From the IMG/VR virus record IMGVR_UViG_2703718772_000005: 14,846 nt of DNA. One strand, written 5' to 3'. Below the pieces are notes generated by a model. The model searched no databases. It saw nothing but the letters and a program-made list of their open reading frames with translations, and had not been told where the DNA came from. Positions within the stretch are counted from its first letter, which is position 1, and each line of letters starts with the position of its first letter. The position numbers and the translations under genes are program-made. Below, in pieces: positions 1 through 6,288 of the stretch. The stretch is from a virus (taxonomy: Duplodnaviria > Heunggongvirae > Uroviricota > Caudoviricetes).

Positions 1-182
1 CAATAAAAAGTGAAGAACTCCTGAGCAGCGCACCATCCTTCATAACCACCCCAATACAAGATGATAACATTGGCTTACAACTCATAACAAAAGCAATTCA
101 ATGCCGTCAAGAGGTTACAGGCTAAAAAAACTCTATTACATAGCAGCCAGCATGTTTACCGTACAAGTACAACTCAGGGCAT

Positions 183-208
183 AAAAAAAACCCACTCGGC
201 AGCGGGTT
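183..208 (-). terminator. Intrinsic terminator downstream of Q (tR'-like)
   Basis: Minus-strand transcript forms AACCCGCU-GCCG-AGUGGGUU hairpin (GC-rich stem with one G-U pair, tetraloop) running into a U8 tract (complement of the A-run 183-190). Sits about 50 nt downstream of the candidate late promoter. Confidence 0.6.
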
Positions 209-242
209 TATACATTTTTTACAACATACCAAATTTGCATGA

Positions 243-271
243 AGTATATGGCTTTTAATCCAGTTTTGCAA
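243..271 (-). promoter_or_regulatory. Candidate sigma70 late promoter (PR'-like), overlapping the Q stop codon
   Basis: On the minus strand: -35 TTGCAA (266-271), 17-nt spacer, -10 TATACT (243-248), A/T-rich upstream. Position immediately 3' of a Q-like gene and 5' of an intrinsic terminator matches the lambdoid PR'-qut-tR' layout. Confidence 0.45.
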
Positions 272-1028
272 TATTTTGCTGTAAAAATGCTGCCTTTTGT
301 TTTGAACGTGTTCTCGTCACAAGCAATAAAGCATCACTATCAAGCTGTAGAAAAATGTGCTTCATTGCAACCCAGCGTTCAGTAAATGTCTCGGACCAGT
401 TTTTTGTTGTCACTCCCACCAATGATGCCAGTGTCTGGTATTCATAGGCCTCACGCCCTGCAAGTTCGCTCTTCACATCCTGTGCAGCCAGCCAGATTAA
501 CGTCTTCAGGCGATCCAGTGTCTTACCTGCAATTTTTCTGTTACTTAACAAATCTTTAAACTCGCTCCATGCCCATTGCGTTATGGTGACCTGATGCCCC
601 CATCGAACGCTTTCGCTGTAACACCAAAGCAACCATGCTTTCTGATGTTCATCGAGAGACAAAACCGCGCGGCGCCATGAAGAGGTTGAGAATTCAACCG
701 GGCTGACCAAAGCAATGGATGAACCTTTTGCGTACGACTGCTTACCGGAAGTCGGCGTATTATCCAGCGTAATCATCTTGCCAGTTACCACATCCAGAAT
801 GCGCGGCTTCTTTCGTTTGTATGTACCAGTATCAAATTGTGCATGCTCCTGCCAGGCTTCGAGCTGGCCTTTCGTTGCTCCGTTCAAGTCAGCAGTAGCT
901 GCCATAAGTTGCTCACGAACATACTGTAAATATTGGGTATTCATGCAGTAAATCCTTTCTATATTTTGGCATAATTCTTCAACATTCGGTAATCGTTCAA
1001 AACCGAATCGGGGAAACGACATAAGCAC
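255..1028 (-). CDS. Q-like late-gene antiterminator (call mainly positional)
   Basis: 257-codon ORF directly downstream of ninH/rusA in the nin operon orientation, followed by a promoter plus terminator pair. I do not recognise which Q family it belongs to. Start is uncertain: track start is GTG at 1028; in-frame ATG at 1022 and ATG at 944 (AGGA 8 nt upstream) are alternatives. Confidence 0.55.
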   Translation of the reverse strand: MLMSFPRFGFERLPNVEELCQNIERIYCMNTQYLQYVREQLMAATADLNGATKGQLEAWQEHAQFDTGTYKRKKPRILDVVTGKMITLDNTPTSGKQSYAKGSSIALVSPVEFSTSSWRRAVLSLDEHQKAWLLWCYSESVRWGHQVTITQWAWSEFKDLLSNRKIAGKTLDRLKTLIWLAAQDVKSELAGREAYEYQTLASLVGVTTKNWSETFTERWVAMKHIFLQLDSDALLLVTRTRSKQKAAFLQQNIAKLD

Positions 1029-1135
1029 ACGAGCCCCCAGCGACAGCGAAGGAGTTCTGATATATAAGACTCAGACATCATTCATTCCCCGGTTCTCCAA
1101 TATCTGTTTCACTCATCATCCATAACTACCTGTAA

Positions 1136-1420
1136 TTGCCCCCCCCTTTTTTTGTAACAGTTCTTATATTGCTATATAGAATAGCCATTACTAATGCTTT
1201 TAAATTTAATAAAATAAAAATTATAAAAAACATAAAACACCACGCAAACACACTTAATAAAAACACCGTTACATTAAAAGATAATAAAAACCGCAATAAA
1301 AAACGAATAAATCAATTGTCTCACGCAATTATAAAACATCATATTGATTACGCACCTTGTATTACAAACTCATGTATGTAAAATACGCGCACCATTCAAA
1401 AAAAAGGAAGACAATAACAT
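1136..1420. promoter_or_regulatory. Strongly AT-rich divergent intergenic region between Q and the lpxR-like gene; candidate lpxR promoter
   Basis: Phased A-tracts (repeated aataaaaa-type motifs) suggest curved DNA. Candidate plus-strand promoter: -35 TTGTAT (1357-1362), 16-nt spacer, -10 TAAAAT (1379-1384); SD AAGGAAG about 10 nt before ATG 1421. The 81-aa ORF 1136..1381 is K/N-rich low complexity and probably not coding. Confidence 0.3.
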
Positions 1421-2380
1421 ATGAAAAAAAGTGTCATCGCTGGCGTCTTTATTGCTCTGTCATTTACCACGTGTTCAGCTATCGCGAACAGCCTTGCATT
1501 ATCATTAGCAAATGATGATGCAGGGAAGTTTCAACCAATACTTAATGATATTTATGGCAATAAACATGAAAACAGAGATGATTACTCACAAGGCTTATTT
1601 CTGGGATATAGCCACGATATCTCAGACTCGAGCCAATTATCTCTCCATATTGCGCAAGATATTTACTCTCCATCAGGCAGTAATAAAAGACACAACACAG
1701 CTGTAACTGGAGACAGAGCTTTTAGTGCATACACTCACACTGGTATTGAATGGAACTCCCTTGCGAATGACTGGATTCGCTATCGATTAGGTACTGACAT
1801 AGGTGTTGTTGGCCCCGACGCAGGCGGTCAGAAAGTACAAAATAAAGCTCATGAGATTATTGGGGCAGAAAAATATCATGCATGGGATGATCAAATAGAG
1901 AATCGCTACGGTTATACTGTAAAAGGGATGCTATCCATGACACCAAGTATGGATATTTTAGGTGCTAATGTTGGATTATACCCTGAAGTTTCTGCTGTTA
2001 CTGGAAACTTATTTCAATATGTAGCATATGGCGCAACCATTGCCATTGGTAATGATAAAACCTTCAATTCGGATAATGGCTTTGGTCTGCTGGCTCCCCG
2101 TGGTTTAATGCATATGTCCGATACAAGCGGATTCAAATACAAGATTTTTGCAGGTATGGAAAGACGAGATGTCAATCGCAACTATACTCTCGAAGGAAAA
2201 ACAATACAGACGAAACAAACAACAGTATCGCTAAACAAAACTGTTGATGAATATCAAGTTGGCGCAACAATTGGGTATGCACCTGTAGCCTTCACACTAG
2301 CATTTAATAAAGTAACATCAGAATTCAAGACAGGGGATGACTATTCATTTATAAATGGAGCAATCACCTTCTTTTTTTAA
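1421..2380 (+). CDS. lpxR: Outer-membrane beta-barrel, LpxR-family lipid A 3'-O-deacylase-like (prophage cargo gene)
   Basis: 319 aa, same length as Salmonella LpxR as I recall it. N-terminal signal peptide with AIA cleavage motif; C-terminal Phe (ITFFF) typical of OM barrels. If cleaved after Ala22, mature positions 9, 10, 34, 122 are N, D, S, H, matching my recollection of the reported LpxR active-site residues N9, D10, T34, H122. AT-rich and on the opposite strand to flanking phage genes. Confidence 0.7.
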   Translation: MKKSVIAGVFIALSFTTCSAIANSLALSLANDDAGKFQPILNDIYGNKHENRDDYSQGLFLGYSHDISDSSQLSLHIAQDIYSPSGSNKRHNTAVTGDRAFSAYTHTGIEWNSLANDWIRYRLGTDIGVVGPDAGGQKVQNKAHEIIGAEKYHAWDDQIENRYGYTVKGMLSMTPSMDILGANVGLYPEVSAVTGNLFQYVAYGATIAIGNDKTFNSDNGFGLLAPRGLMHMSDTSGFKYKIFAGMERRDVNRNYTLEGKTIQTKQTTVSLNKTVDEYQVGATIGYAPVAFTLAFNKVTSEFKTGDDYSFINGAITFFF

Positions 2381-2427
2381 CTGAATTGAATTCAATCAAA
2401 ATAACATAAGTCCAACAAAAACATAAA

Positions 2428-2462
2428 GTGCGAAATGAATGCCAGCTCCATTTATTTCGCAC
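2428..2462. terminator. Long hairpin between convergent lpxR and ninH; terminator-like, mainly for the minus strand
   Basis: GTGCGAAATGAATG / CATTTATTTCGCAC arms (14 bp, one G-U) around a 7-nt loop. On the minus strand it is followed by a U-rich tract (UUUAUGUUUUUGUUGG); on the plus strand by an A-rich tract, so weaker there. Confidence 0.5.
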
Positions 2463-2591
2463 TATAAAAGATTAAAAGTTGCAATAAAATAATAAAATGA
2501 CTCAGTTACGAAAACCAATAAACTGTGGCCAGTAGTGAGTCGCTCATCATCGGGCTTTTTGGCGAATGAAATTTAGCTACGCTTTCGAGTC

Positions 2592-2780
2592 TCATCGTCT
2601 TCCCCTCTTGCCCTGTTTGACCATCAGGACGCCGTTAACTATTACATGACGCTCGCCTTTGCTGTCTCGGTTGTACTTGAGCACTGTTCCTCTTGCGCAG
2701 GAAAGCATCCTCGCCACTTCGGTCTGATTGCCTCGTGTCTGGATAAGAAGCTCTGGTATCGTTTGAATTGTGGCGTTCAT
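2592..2780 (-). CDS. ninH: NinH-like protein
   Basis: 62 aa, resembles lambda NinH (IPxxL...GNQTEVAR...RGTV.KY motif). ATG overlaps the rusA stop as ATGA. Confidence 0.75.
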   Translation of the reverse strand: MNATIQTIPELLIQTRGNQTEVARMLSCARGTVLKYNRDSKGERHVIVNGVLMVKQGKRGRR

Positions 2781-5694: not shown

Positions 5695-6288
5695 ACGCAT
5701 CTGAAACTGCAGACTGCGCAGGATTCAGACAATGGATTTTCGGCGCTTGAACAGGCGCTGCTGCGGTATATCGCCGCCGGTCTTGGCGTTTCCTACGAAC
5801 AGTTGTCCCGGGATTACTCGAAGGTCAGTTATTCAAGTGCCCGCGCCTCCGCCAATGAGTCGTGGCGCTATTTTATGGGACGACGAAAATTTATTGCGTC
5901 CCGGCTGGCCACGCAGATGTTTTCCTGCTGGCTGGAAGAGGCACTTCTTCGGGGGATTATTCGTCCGCCACGGGCGCGTTTTGATTTTTATCAGGCGCGA
6001 TCAGCCTGGTCACGGGCTGAGTGGATTGGAGCCGGAAGAATGGCCATTGACGGGCTCAAGGAAGTCCAGGAATCAGTGATGCGCATTGAGGCCGGACTGA
6101 GCACGTATGAGAAAGAGCTGGCGCTGATGGGCGAGGATTATCAGGACATTTTCCGCCAGCAGGTCAGGGAATCTGCTGAGCGACAAAAAGCCGGACTCTC
6201 ACGTCCGGTGTGGATAGCGCAGGCGTATGAGCAGCAGATAGCGGAGAGTCGCAGGCCGGAAGAGGAGACAACACCACGTGAGACGTAA
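5695..6288 (+). pseudogene. B: Portal protein B, 5'-truncated remnant (C-terminal about 195 codons only)
   Basis: Open frame from stop at 5692-5694 to 6288, no ATG before the TTG at 5803. Sits immediately upstream of and overlapping gene C, as the portal gene does in lambda; about 1 kb of expected upstream coding is replaced by minus-strand nin-module genes. Confidence 0.7.

What the first reader, a model, noticed from the sequence alone, without database searches (positions are those of the whole stretch)
183..271. Compact late promoter plus terminator unit right after Q (PR'-qut-tR' analogue with a short leader of about 50 nt)
A near-consensus promoter (TTGCAA-17-TATACT) overlaps the Q stop codon and is followed within about 50 nt by a strong intrinsic terminator. 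This is the architecture on which Q antiterminators act, but the leader is far shorter than lambda's 6S RNA. The initial transcribed region contains -10-like hexamers (for example TATGTT) that could induce the sigma-dependent promoter-proximal pause Q needs. This supports the Q call and defines a testable Q-utilisation site.
Basis: partly seen in the sequence, partly recalled or inferred. Interest (0 to 1): 0.55.

Follow-up and report, generated by a model that had tools for sequence, protein, structure and literature searches.

The report
Phage 82-type late promoter, compact leader
This is the late-gene control switch of a phage 434-like prophage (a promoter, a built-in pause signal and a terminator packed into about 90 bases after the Q antiterminator gene); it is a shorter version of the well-studied phage 82 switch, so it is real but of a known kind.

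Summary
On the minus strand, TTGCAA (271-266), 17 bp, then TATACT (248-243) overlaps the Q stop codon (257-255). An extended -10-like element TGgTATGTT lies at 231-223. An intrinsic terminator follows (stem 209-188, U8 run 190-183).

The promoter match alone is no better than chance. The evidence is comparative.
- The upstream gene is a phage 82-family Q (PF06323, 88.7% identical to 82 Q).
- Across 108 unique Q82-family promoter regions, the -35 TTGCAAAA, the 17-bp spacing, A-11/T-7 and a downstream TGnTATnnT at +6..+14 are nearly invariant. This holds in a ~34%-identical Q subfamily where the promoter is non-coding.
- The geometry matches published 82 pR' (extended -10-like pause element, pause at +25/+26).

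The ~54-nt leader belongs to a discrete compact class (20 of 98 unique regions). That class lacks the initial-transcribed-region hairpin of the main ~70-88-nt class. The window also lacks 82's GCC at +15-17, so the pause may be weaker.

The DNA is identical to phage 434 and occurs in 620 of 5,426 complete E. coli genomes. In this window it sits in a rearranged prophage remnant.

By-product: the Salmonella sRNA IsrJ is the long-class homologue of this leader.

The parts
255..944 (-). Q antiterminator gene, phage 82 family (229 aa, start ATG 944, stop TAA 257-255)
   Evidence: Pfam PF06323, E 1.7e-91. 88.7% identical to phage 82 Q. 100% identical to the phage 434 Q82-like protein. All relatives start MNTQYLQ.
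266..271 (-). -35 hexamer TTGCAA of the late promoter (pR'), inside the last codons of Q
   Evidence: T-35, T-34 and G-33 in 108/108 and TTGCAAAA in >=104/108 unique family regions. The synonymous third positions -34, -31 and -28 are near-invariant. The same motif is non-coding in the ~34%-identity subfamily.
249..265 (-). 17-bp spacer AACTGGATTAAAAGCCA, the candidate Q-binding element (QBE); contains the Q stop codon
   Evidence: 15/17 identical to the 82-type spacer. A-29, A-28, A-23, A-19 and A-18 are conserved in >=103/108. The QBE of 82 pR' lies between -35 and -10 (PMC4914094). Binding is inferred, not shown.
243..248 (-). -10 hexamer TATACT
   Evidence: A-11 and T-7 in 108/108. Spacer of 17 bp in 143/144 loci. 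The window's C at -8 is a minority variant (6/108).
236..236 (-). Predicted transcription start (+1, A; uncertainty about 1-3 nt)
   Evidence: Six nt after the -10. With this numbering the 82-type loci have GCC exactly at +15-17, as published for 82 pR' (PMC5001585). The Rfam isrJ model starts 3 nt upstream of the equivalent base.
223..231 (-). Extended -10-like sigma70-dependent pause element TGgTATGTT (+6..+14)
   Evidence: Family profile T+6 G+7 n T+9 A+10 T+11 n n T+14, each in >=100/108, with +12/+13 free. The 82 pR' pause element is described as -10-like with an extended -10 (PMC5001585).
211..213 (-). Predicted pause site (+24..+26; by analogy with 82 pR' +25/+26)
   Evidence: Same distance from the -10-like element as in 82 pR', and TGTA at +23..+26 is shared with the 82 type. 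Inference only. +15-17 is GTA here instead of 82's GCC, which may weaken or shift the pause.
188..209 (-). tR'-like intrinsic terminator hairpin (+28..+49), AAACCCGCT-GCCG-AGTGGGTTT
   Evidence: about -12 kcal/mol. Annotated as a terminator in the phage 434 record at window 181-206. The core pairs are kept in >=12/14 compact-class relatives, and pairing collapses when partners are slid.
183..190 (-). U8 tract of the terminator (+47..+54); predicted 3' end of a ~54-nt leader RNA
   Evidence: Tract length varies from T7 to T9 among otherwise identical copies.

Best explanation
This is the late promoter, Q-utilisation site and first late terminator (pR'-qut-tR') of a phage 434-type lambdoid prophage. 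It belongs to the phage 82 class.

Inferred mechanism, by homology with 82 pR':
1. Sigma70 RNA polymerase initiates constitutively at about A236.
2. Sigma70, still bound, re-engages the extended -10-like element TGgTATGTT at +6..+14 on the non-template strand. The complex pauses near +25.
3. The Q82-family protein, bound to the spacer between -35 and -10, loads onto the paused complex with NusA's help.
4. The modified polymerase reads through the hairpin and U8 terminator that starts 3 nt beyond the pause site, and through later terminators, to reach accessory, lysis and morphogenesis genes.
5. Without Q, transcription ends at about +54 and gives a short leader RNA.

Shown here: the sequence elements, their family-wide conservation and register, the identity of Q, and the downstream gene layout.

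Inferred: initiation, pausing, Q binding and read-through.

The leader belongs to a discrete compact class that lacks the +11..+39 hairpin of most family members.
For: Identity of Q and of the locus:
- Q is PF06323 and 88.7% identical to 82 Q.
- The window is 99.9-100% identical to phage 434, a viable phage, over this region.

Forward conservation test:
- In 108 unique promoter regions from 158 Q82-family loci, the -35, the 17-bp spacing, A-11/T-7 and TGnTATnnT at +6..+14 are near-invariant, while +12/+13 vary freely.
- The same elements lie 30-47 nt past the stop codon, in non-coding DNA, in the ~34%-identity subfamily.

Reverse test:
- 61 of 120 sampled hits to the 14-base composite motif in a viral collection have a Q82-family ORF directly upstream. 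Three more are Gifsy-1-type derivatives.
- There is one hit in the window and none in 200 shuffles.
- Under a relaxed motif, no second site exists in the window or in 434's Q-to-cos region.

Agreement with published 82 pR':
- The published geometry is an extended -10-like element, GCC at +15-17 and pauses at +25/+26 (PMC5001585). It matches the numbering of loci whose Q is 98-99% identical to 82 Q.

Terminator:
- 98 of 109 unique regions have an intrinsic terminator within about 100 nt of +1.

Downstream layout:
- In 434 there are accessory genes with two more same-strand terminators, then holin, endolysin, spanins and cos.

In vivo evidence for a homologue:
- The long-class homologue of the leader is detected as the 74-nt Salmonella RNA IsrJ (PMC2330248).
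Against: - There is no direct transcript, pause or read-through data for this sequence.
- The promoter is only 9/12 to consensus, with a rare C at -8.
- +15-17 is GTA, whereas 82 has GCC. Mutating those bases shortened the 82 pause 2- to 5-fold (PMC5001585). C at +17 is found in 96/108 relatives. The pause here may therefore be weak or displaced.
- In the window's own genomic context the circuit looks broken. No immunity or early region lies upstream of Q (the nin region abuts a truncated portal gene at 5699). In the otherwise identical O111 genome the lysis genes downstream are disrupted.
Confidence: 0.85

Rival explanations
1. In this host the unit is a relic. The promoter and terminator may still fire, but the Q gene has lost its early promoter and the late genes are scattered or disrupted. 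The only output would then be a constitutive short terminated RNA with no role in lytic development.
For: The window is 100% identical to E. coli O111 strain 11128 apart from one IS3. The nin region abuts a truncated portal gene on the opposite strand at 5699, with no immunity or replication genes. In O111 the downstream lysozyme gene is split by IS1203 and lies next to int.
Against: This concerns present-day use, not what the element is. The sequence is identical to that of viable phage 434. Q could be supplied in trans by another Q82-type prophage, or by read-through. The unit is ≥99% identical in 611 complete E. coli genomes.
Confidence: 0.35
2. The unit's selected function is to make a trans-acting small RNA (like StxS or IsrJ). 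The Q-dependent switch would then be secondary or lost.
For: Terminated pR' transcripts can become Hfq-binding regulators (StxS, PMC7547250). The long-class homologue IsrJ has an invasion phenotype in Salmonella (PMC2330248). The unit is highly conserved in EHEC lineages.
Against: The compact leader has only about 27 unstructured nt before the terminator. It does not match isrJ or any Rfam family at threshold. The family-wide conserved positions are those read by sigma70 and by Q as DNA, not a seed region. There is no target or Hfq evidence. The conservation may be clonal.
Confidence: 0.1
3. The terminator simply ends the early (Q) operon, and the promoter-like and -10-like hexamers are chance or coding by-products.
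For: A 9/12 promoter match is no more frequent than chance (7 found, 7.9 expected). The -35 lies within Q codons.
Against: The composite motif occurs in 0 of 200 shuffles. The synonymous positions under the -35 are near-invariant. The whole promoter and pause element are conserved in non-coding DNA in the divergent subfamily. 61 of 120 motif hits in a viral collection lie next to a Q82-family gene.
Confidence: 0.03
4. TTGCAA is conserved because it is part of a CII-activated antisense promoter (paQ) on the plus strand, as the phage 434 record annotates. On this view it is not the -35 of a late promoter.
For: The plus strand at 266-279 reads TTGCAATATTTTGC, a perfect TTGC-N6-TTGC CII-type site. 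The 434 record marks it as a CII site and paQ -35.
Against: The second TTGC (positions -43..-40 on the Q strand) is present in only about half of the family (C-42 in 59/108, A-41 in 52/108). The idea does not explain the conserved -10, spacing, pause element or terminator. No convincing -10 follows on the plus strand. The two functions could coexist.
Confidence: 0.05

Closest known systems
Phage 82 late promoter region (82 pR', QBE, sigma70-dependent pause at +25/+26, t82 terminator)
   Same: Q of the same Pfam family (88.7% identical). Identical -35. Spacer/QBE region 15/17 identical. -10 5/6. Extended -10-like pause element at the same position (+6..+14). TGTA at +23..+26. An intrinsic terminator within 100 nt.
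   Different: The window has GTA instead of GCC at +15-17. It lacks the +11..+39 hairpin. Its terminator starts at +28, against about +50 in the 82 type, giving a leader of about 54 nt instead of about 80 nt. Its U-tract is a perfect U8, whereas the 82 type has UUUUCUGU.
Phage lambda pR'-qut-tR' and 6S RNA
   Same: Same logic: a constitutive promoter just after Q, a -10-like pause element in the initial transcribed region, a QBE between -35 and -10, and an intrinsic terminator giving a short RNA (PMC4914094, PMC7547250).
   Different: The Q family is unrelated (PF03589 against PF06323). In lambda the pause is at +16/+17, with the element 9 bp closer to the start (PMC5001585). The terminated lambda transcript is about 194 nt (termination at +193, PMC4914094), against about 54 nt here.
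IsrJ sRNA of Salmonella Gifsy-1 (Rfam RF01393)
   Same: Homologous promoter, start region and pause element. IsrJ-type leaders follow Q82-family genes in 22 of 28 long-class loci tested. In Gifsy-1-type contigs the promoter keeps the relic TTGCAAAACTGGATTAA of the Q terminus.
   Different: IsrJ belongs to the long class, with a GUCG..CGAC hairpin and a different terminator. The window does not score against the isrJ model. In Gifsy-1 an isrK-orf45-anrP cassette separates antQ from the promoter.
StxS, the processed pR'-tR' transcript of Shiga-toxin phages
   Same: A short RNA made because a constitutively active late promoter is terminated during lysogeny (PMC7547250).
   Different: StxS is processed from a 258-nt primary transcript and has shown Hfq binding and targets. 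There is no sequence relation and no functional evidence for the window's leader.

Membership tests
Phage 82-type late promoter / Q-utilisation site | A cognate Q antiterminator of the 82 family (PF06323) encoded immediately upstream | tested here: met
   PF06323, E 1.7e-91. 88.7% identity to phage 82 Q. The stop codon lies inside the promoter spacer.
Phage 82-type late promoter / Q-utilisation site | A sigma70 promoter with the Q-binding element between -35 and -10 | tested here: inconclusive
   TTGCAA-17-TATACT is present. The spacer is 15/17 identical to the 82 type and has conserved A-29/-28/-23/-19/-18. Actual Q binding cannot be tested with these tools.
Phage 82-type late promoter / Q-utilisation site | A -10-like pause-inducing element with an extended -10 (TGn) at about +6..+14 | tested here: met
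   TGgTATGTT at 231-223. The family profile is TGnTATnnT. Described for 82 pR' in PMC5001585.
Phage 82-type late promoter / Q-utilisation site | A G/C-rich 'discriminator' (GCC at +15-17) that sets and strengthens the pause | tested here: not met
   The window has GTA at 222-220. C at +17 occurs in 96/108 relatives. This is a modulating feature rather than a defining one, but it predicts a weaker or displaced pause.
Phage 82-type late promoter / Q-utilisation site | A sigma70-dependent pause near +25 and Q/NusA-dependent read-through | not testable with these tools
   Requires in vitro transcription or in vivo reporters.
Phage 82-type late promoter / Q-utilisation site | An intrinsic terminator shortly downstream, followed by late (lysis) genes on the same strand | tested here: met
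   Terminator at 183-209. In phage 434 the lysis cassette follows about 3.7 kb downstream. In the O111 remnant a holin and a disrupted lysozyme gene follow.
Lambda-type pR'/6S RNA | A lambda-family Q (PF03589), a pause element adjacent to the start with the pause at +16/+17, and a ~194-nt leader | tested here: not met
   Q is PF06323 only. The element is at +6..+14. The leader is about 54 nt. It works like lambda's but is not a member.
Rfam isrJ (RF01393) | Covariance-model score at or above the gathering threshold (37 bits) | tested here: not met
   No isrJ match in window 1-1200 even at E<=1. 22 of 28 long-class relatives and 0 of 4 compact-class relatives score.
Rfam STnc240 (RF02074) | Covariance-model score at or above the gathering threshold (55 bits) | tested here: not met
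   28.2 bits at window 179-248(-). The alignment rests on the A-run and the terminator. Treated as chance.

The most novel reading that the evidence does not exclude
The compact 434-type unit would be the shortest natural Q-utilisation module: terminator hairpin starting 3 nt past the pause site, no initial-transcribed-region hairpin, no GCC 'discriminator'. Its constitutive ~54-nt product would have been co-opted as a regulatory RNA in EHEC lineages, as happened with its long-class homologue IsrJ and with StxS. That would explain why the Q/pR' module stays intact at ≥99% identity in about 11% of complete E. coli genomes inside decaying prophages.
Probability: 0.1. Interest if true: 0.55.

Novelty: new member of a known kind. 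Interest (0 to 1): 0.33.

Why it matters
- It places the unannotated late promoter of phage 434, and of a prophage remnant carried by about 11% of complete E. coli genomes (including O157, O145 and O111), at single-base resolution.
- It shows that phage 82-type late control regions come in two discrete architectures.
- The compact form is a natural minimal substrate for studying how Q82-family antiterminators load. It has no structural model yet. It pairs a terminator almost abutting the pause site with a natural variant of the pause-strengthening GCC.
- The family-wide profile (TTGCAAAA-N15-tATAtT-N11-TGnTATnnT) is specific enough to annotate such sites automatically.
- It also reinterprets the Salmonella virulence-associated sRNA IsrJ as the terminated late leader cognate to the Gifsy-1 antiterminator AntQ.
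- None of this changes the known mechanism.

Tried and rejected
- Retrieving the published 82 pR' sequence failed. The supplement of PMC4914094 is not held, several Roberts/Hochschild papers are not held, and sequence-string searches of the literature found nothing relevant. I used loci whose Q is 98-99% identical to 82 Q as a proxy and checked their numbering against PMC5001585.
- I first guessed that Gifsy-1 'orf45-anrP' were YlcG plus a Q82-family protein. This was wrong. The antQ primer and contigs L170, L171 and L257 show that AntQ is the Q82-family member and AnrP is unrelated.
- IsrK was considered as the leader homologue and rejected, because it has no TGnTATnnT.
- The STnc240, Phe-leader and Leu-leader Rfam hits are far below threshold and were treated as chance.
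- The second promoter-like site at 90-61 was rejected as pR'. It has no downstream pause element or terminator and sits 10 nt from a ribosome-binding site.
- My recollection that the t82/T500 terminator derives from this region of phage 82 could not be confirmed from the library. It is used only as a memory-based remark.
- No search for literature on the phage 434 genome record succeeded.

Full report
**1. What is in the sequence**

All coordinates are on the minus strand.
- The -35 TTGCAA is at 271-266.
- A 17-bp spacer, AACTGGATTAAAAGCCA, contains the Q stop codon TAA at 257-255.
- The -10 TATACT is at 248-243.
- An A at 236 lies six bases after the -10 and is the predicted +1.
- TGgTATGTT is at 231-223 (+6..+14).
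- A hairpin AAACCCGCT-GCCG-AGTGGGTTT is at 209-188 (+28..+49). Its energy is about -12 kcal/mol.
- An uninterrupted T8 run is at 190-183 (+47..+54).

Two points need correcting.
- The Q ORF almost certainly starts at ATG 944 (MNTQYLQ..., 229 aa), not GTG 1028.
- The promoter is a 9/12 match rather than near-consensus.

By themselves such promoter-like and terminator-like matches are no more common than in shuffled sequence: 7 found against 7.9 expected, and 2 against 2.0. The case therefore rests on the combination and on comparison. The composite motif TTGCAA-N17-TANNNT-N11-TGNTANNNT occurs once in the window and in none of 200 shuffles.

**2. Where the DNA comes from**

- The ORF is a phage 82-family Q antiterminator (PF06323, E 1.7e-91). 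It is 88.7% identical to phage 82 Q.
- Window 1-1100 is 99.9% identical to phage 434 (OL657226.1), and window 1-330 is 100% identical.
- The 434 record annotates only a terminator here (window 181-206) and CII/paQ pattern matches. It annotates no late promoter.
- In 434 the unit is followed by a membrane-protein gene, tciB, another small membrane protein and a SASA esterase. This stretch contains two further same-strand terminators. Then come pinholin, SAR endolysin, spanins and cos. This layout requires a processive antiterminator loaded just after Q.

**3. Comparative test, from Q to motif**

I collected 158 Q82-family loci from species-representative genomes, IMG/VR and phage records. I anchored them on the promoter, which gave 109 unique promoter regions. 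Of these, 108 have a 17-bp spacer and were aligned for the profile.

| Feature | Result |
|---|---|
| Spacer length | 17 bp in 143 of 144 loci |
| T-35, T-34, G-33 | 108/108 |
| TTGCAAAA | >=104/108 |
| Synonymous third positions -34, -31, -28 | near-invariant |
| A-11, T-7 | 108/108 |
| T+6, G+7, T+9, A+10, T+11, T+14 | each >=100/108 |
| +12, +13 | vary freely |

The downstream pattern is an extended -10 (TGnTATnnT), conserved exactly at the positions sigma70 reads.

In a subfamily whose Q is only about 34% identical (phage Flotzy, L075-L079), the same promoter and pause element lie 30-47 nt beyond the stop codon in non-coding DNA. Coding constraint therefore cannot explain the conservation.

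**4. Comparative test, from motif to Q**

- 61 have a Q82-family ORF directly upstream on the same strand.
- 3 more are Gifsy-1-type derivatives.
- The remainder look like random AT-rich matches.

Under a relaxed motif there is no second site in the window, in 434's Q-to-cos region, or in 22 kb of the O111 genome.

**5. Agreement with experiment on phage 82**

The literature gives the following.
- PMC4914094 places the 82 QBE between -35 and -10 and the native pause at +25.
- PMC5001585 describes the 82 pause element as -10-like with an extended -10.
- It reports a GCC 'discriminator' at +15-17, an AT-rich stretch at +18..+25, and pauses at +25/+26.
- Mutating each base of the GCC roughly halves the pause half-life.

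Loci whose Q is 98-99% identical to 82 Q (L103, L108) have GCC exactly at +15-17 under my numbering. This supports +1 = A236 in the window.

Position-by-position comparison with the 82 type:

| Segment | Window | 82 type | Match |
|---|---|---|---|
| -35 | TTGCAA | TTGCAA | 6/6 |
| Spacer | AACTGGATTAAAAGCCA | AACTGGATTAAAAATCA | 15/17 |
| -10 | TATACT | TATATT | 5/6 |
| Pause element | TGGTATGTT | TGATATTTT | 7/9 |
| +15..+17 | GTA | GCC | 1/3 |
| +23..+26 | TGTA | TGTA | 4/4 |

Beyond +27 the two sequences are unrelated. The GTA is a real deviation, because C at +17 occurs in 96/108 relatives. It predicts a weaker or displaced pause.

**6. The short leader**

98 of 109 unique regions have an intrinsic terminator within about 100 nt of +1. 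Leader length falls into classes, measured to the end of the T-run and allowing one interruption:
- 52-59 nt in 20 regions, including the window;
- 69-88 nt in 74 regions, including the 82 type at about 80 nt;
- 93-100 nt in 4 regions.

The long class carries a hairpin from about +11 to +39 (median -8.4 kcal/mol). The compact class is essentially unstructured before the terminator (0 to -5 kcal/mol).

Compact-class members come from E. coli, Kluyvera, Superficieibacter, Scandinavium, Izhakiella, Pantoea, Citrobacter, Enterobacter and Buttiauxella, and include the divergent subfamily.
- They align almost without gaps through the terminator. The stem starts at +28 to +31 in most and +25 to +27 in the rest.
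- The terminator core pairs are kept in >=12/14.

The short leader is thus an old, recurrent architecture and not a local deletion.

Phage 2B8 has a lambda-type Q and promoter. It becomes >=93% identical to the window only from the terminator onward, and its hairpin copy is degraded. The mosaic joint therefore lies at the terminator, and the downstream cassette travels independently of the Q/promoter module.

**7. Mechanism**

By homology with 82, the sequence of events is as follows.
1. The promoter initiates constitutively.
2. Sigma70 is recaptured at TGgTATGTT.
3. The complex pauses near +25 (window 212).
4. Q bound to the spacer loads onto the paused complex, assisted by NusA.
5. The modified polymerase reads through the hairpin/U8 terminator that begins 3 nt later, and through later terminators.
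6. Without Q, a ~54-nt RNA is released.

Shown here are the sequence anatomy, the conservation, the identity of Q and the gene layout. Initiation, pausing, binding and read-through are inferred.

**8. Context in this window**

- The window is 100% identical to E. coli O111:H- strain 11128, except that it lacks a 1.3-kb IS3 at window 5699.
- The prophage lies next to ybhC and is rearranged. Its order is int, a lysozyme pseudogene split by IS1203, holin, esterase, DUF3927, membrane protein, this unit, Q, ylcG, lpxR (opposite strand), a lambda-type Q N-terminal fragment and the nin genes. A truncated portal gene and a head-tail module then follow on the opposite strand.
- No immunity or replication region is present.
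- Here the switch may therefore be a relic that only makes the terminated RNA.
- The exact unit occurs in 620 of 5,426 complete E. coli genomes, including O157:H7, O145 and O111.

**9. By-product: IsrJ**

- Rfam isrJ (RF01393) matches above threshold in 22 of 28 long-class loci tested. The match always starts 16 nt after the Q stop. It matches 0 of 4 compact-class loci and does not match the window.
- IsrJ is a 74-nt Salmonella Gifsy-1 RNA mapped by primer extension and reported to affect invasion (PMC2330248).
- Gifsy-1 AntQ is a Q82-family protein. Its cloning primer encodes MNTQYLQ.
- In Gifsy-1-type contigs the order is antQ, orf45, anrP, and the isrJ promoter.
  - antQ has a replaced C-terminus.
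  - The anrP stop codon directly abuts TTGCAAAACTGGATTAA, followed by the -10, the pause element and IsrJ.
  - TTGCAAAACTGGATTAA is a relic of the ancestral Q terminus.
- IsrJ is therefore the terminated late-leader RNA cognate to AntQ.
- The two primary papers and one review I could read do not say this.
- PMC7547250 states the general principle that terminated pR' transcripts can become sRNAs, and notes short late RNAs for phages 21, phi80, 82 and P22.

**10. Verdict**

The element is a new, compact member of the known phage 82-type late control region. It is identical to that of phage 434, where the promoter is unannotated. Interest is modest. Its value lies in precise annotation, in providing a natural minimal Q82 substrate with a variant pause determinant, and in the IsrJ link.

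Noticed in passing
L009:1592-1668; L047:2206-2280; L170, L171, L257 (Gifsy-1-type contigs): The Salmonella sRNA IsrJ (Rfam RF01393) is the terminated leader of a Q82-type late promoter. It hits 22 of 28 long-class loci, starting 16 nt after the Q stop. In Gifsy-1-type contigs an isrK-orf45-anrP cassette sits between antQ (Q82 family, C-terminus replaced) and an intact promoter. That promoter still carries the relic Q-terminus TTGCAAAACTGGATTAA. The papers I could read do not make this link.
   Followed up: partly
long-class loci, +11..+39 of the leader (e.g. L108, L010, L045): Most Q82-family leaders have a hairpin straddling the +25 pause site. Its sequence differs between subtypes (GCC..GGC, GTCG..CGAC, ATGCTGCC..GGCGGCAT), and the median energy is -8.4 kcal/mol. 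It is absent from the compact class, including viable phage 434, so it is dispensable. Its role is unknown.
   Followed up: partly
window 220-222 (minus strand, +15..+17): The 434-type leader has GTA where phage 82 has the pause-strengthening GCC, and where 96/108 relatives have C at +17. It also has a rare C at -8 of the promoter -10 (window 244). Both are lineage-specific deviations of unknown consequence.
   Followed up: partly
window 5699: Rearrangement joint. The nin region (minus strand) abuts a truncated portal gene (plus strand), with no immunity or replication genes between them. Most related genomes, including O111 strain 11128, carry a 1.3-kb IS3 exactly here. Only 4 complete genomes have the uninterrupted joint.
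   Followed up: partly
window 1421-2595: An lpxR (lipid A deacylase) gene on the opposite strand lies between a 24-codon N-terminal fragment of a lambda-type Q gene (about 2524-2595, minus strand) and ylcG plus the Q82-type Q. This looks like the scar of a Q-module replacement. It is shared with phage 434.
   Followed up: no
window 61-90 (minus strand): A second promoter-like site, TTGTTA-18-TATCAT with an extended -10 TG, lies just upstream of the ribosome-binding site and ATG (43) of the downstream 248-aa membrane-protein gene. It could be a moron promoter. The region is identical in phage 2B8, which has a different Q type.
   Followed up: partly
window 266-279 (plus strand): TTGCAATATTTTGC is a perfect TTGC-N6-TTGC CII-type site overlapping the palindromic -35 TTGCAA of the late promoter. 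The phage 434 record annotates it as paQ. The second TTGC is present in only about half of the family, and no clear -10 follows.
   Followed up: partly
window 183-190 and relatives L081, L089, L091: The terminator U-tract varies between T7, T8 and T9 among otherwise identical copies of the unit. This is homopolymer length polymorphism.
   Followed up: no
window 1139-1153 (minus strand): An A7G8 homopolymer pair (aaaaaaagggggggg) lies in the intergenic region between lpxR and ylcG. It could be a slipped-strand site. Not examined.
   Followed up: no
L004:1883-2040 (phage 2B8): Phage 2B8 has a lambda-type Q and a lambda-like pR'. It joins the window's downstream cassette at a degraded copy of the window's terminator hairpin. 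This shows that the terminator marks a recombination joint between Q modules and downstream cassettes.
   Followed up: partly
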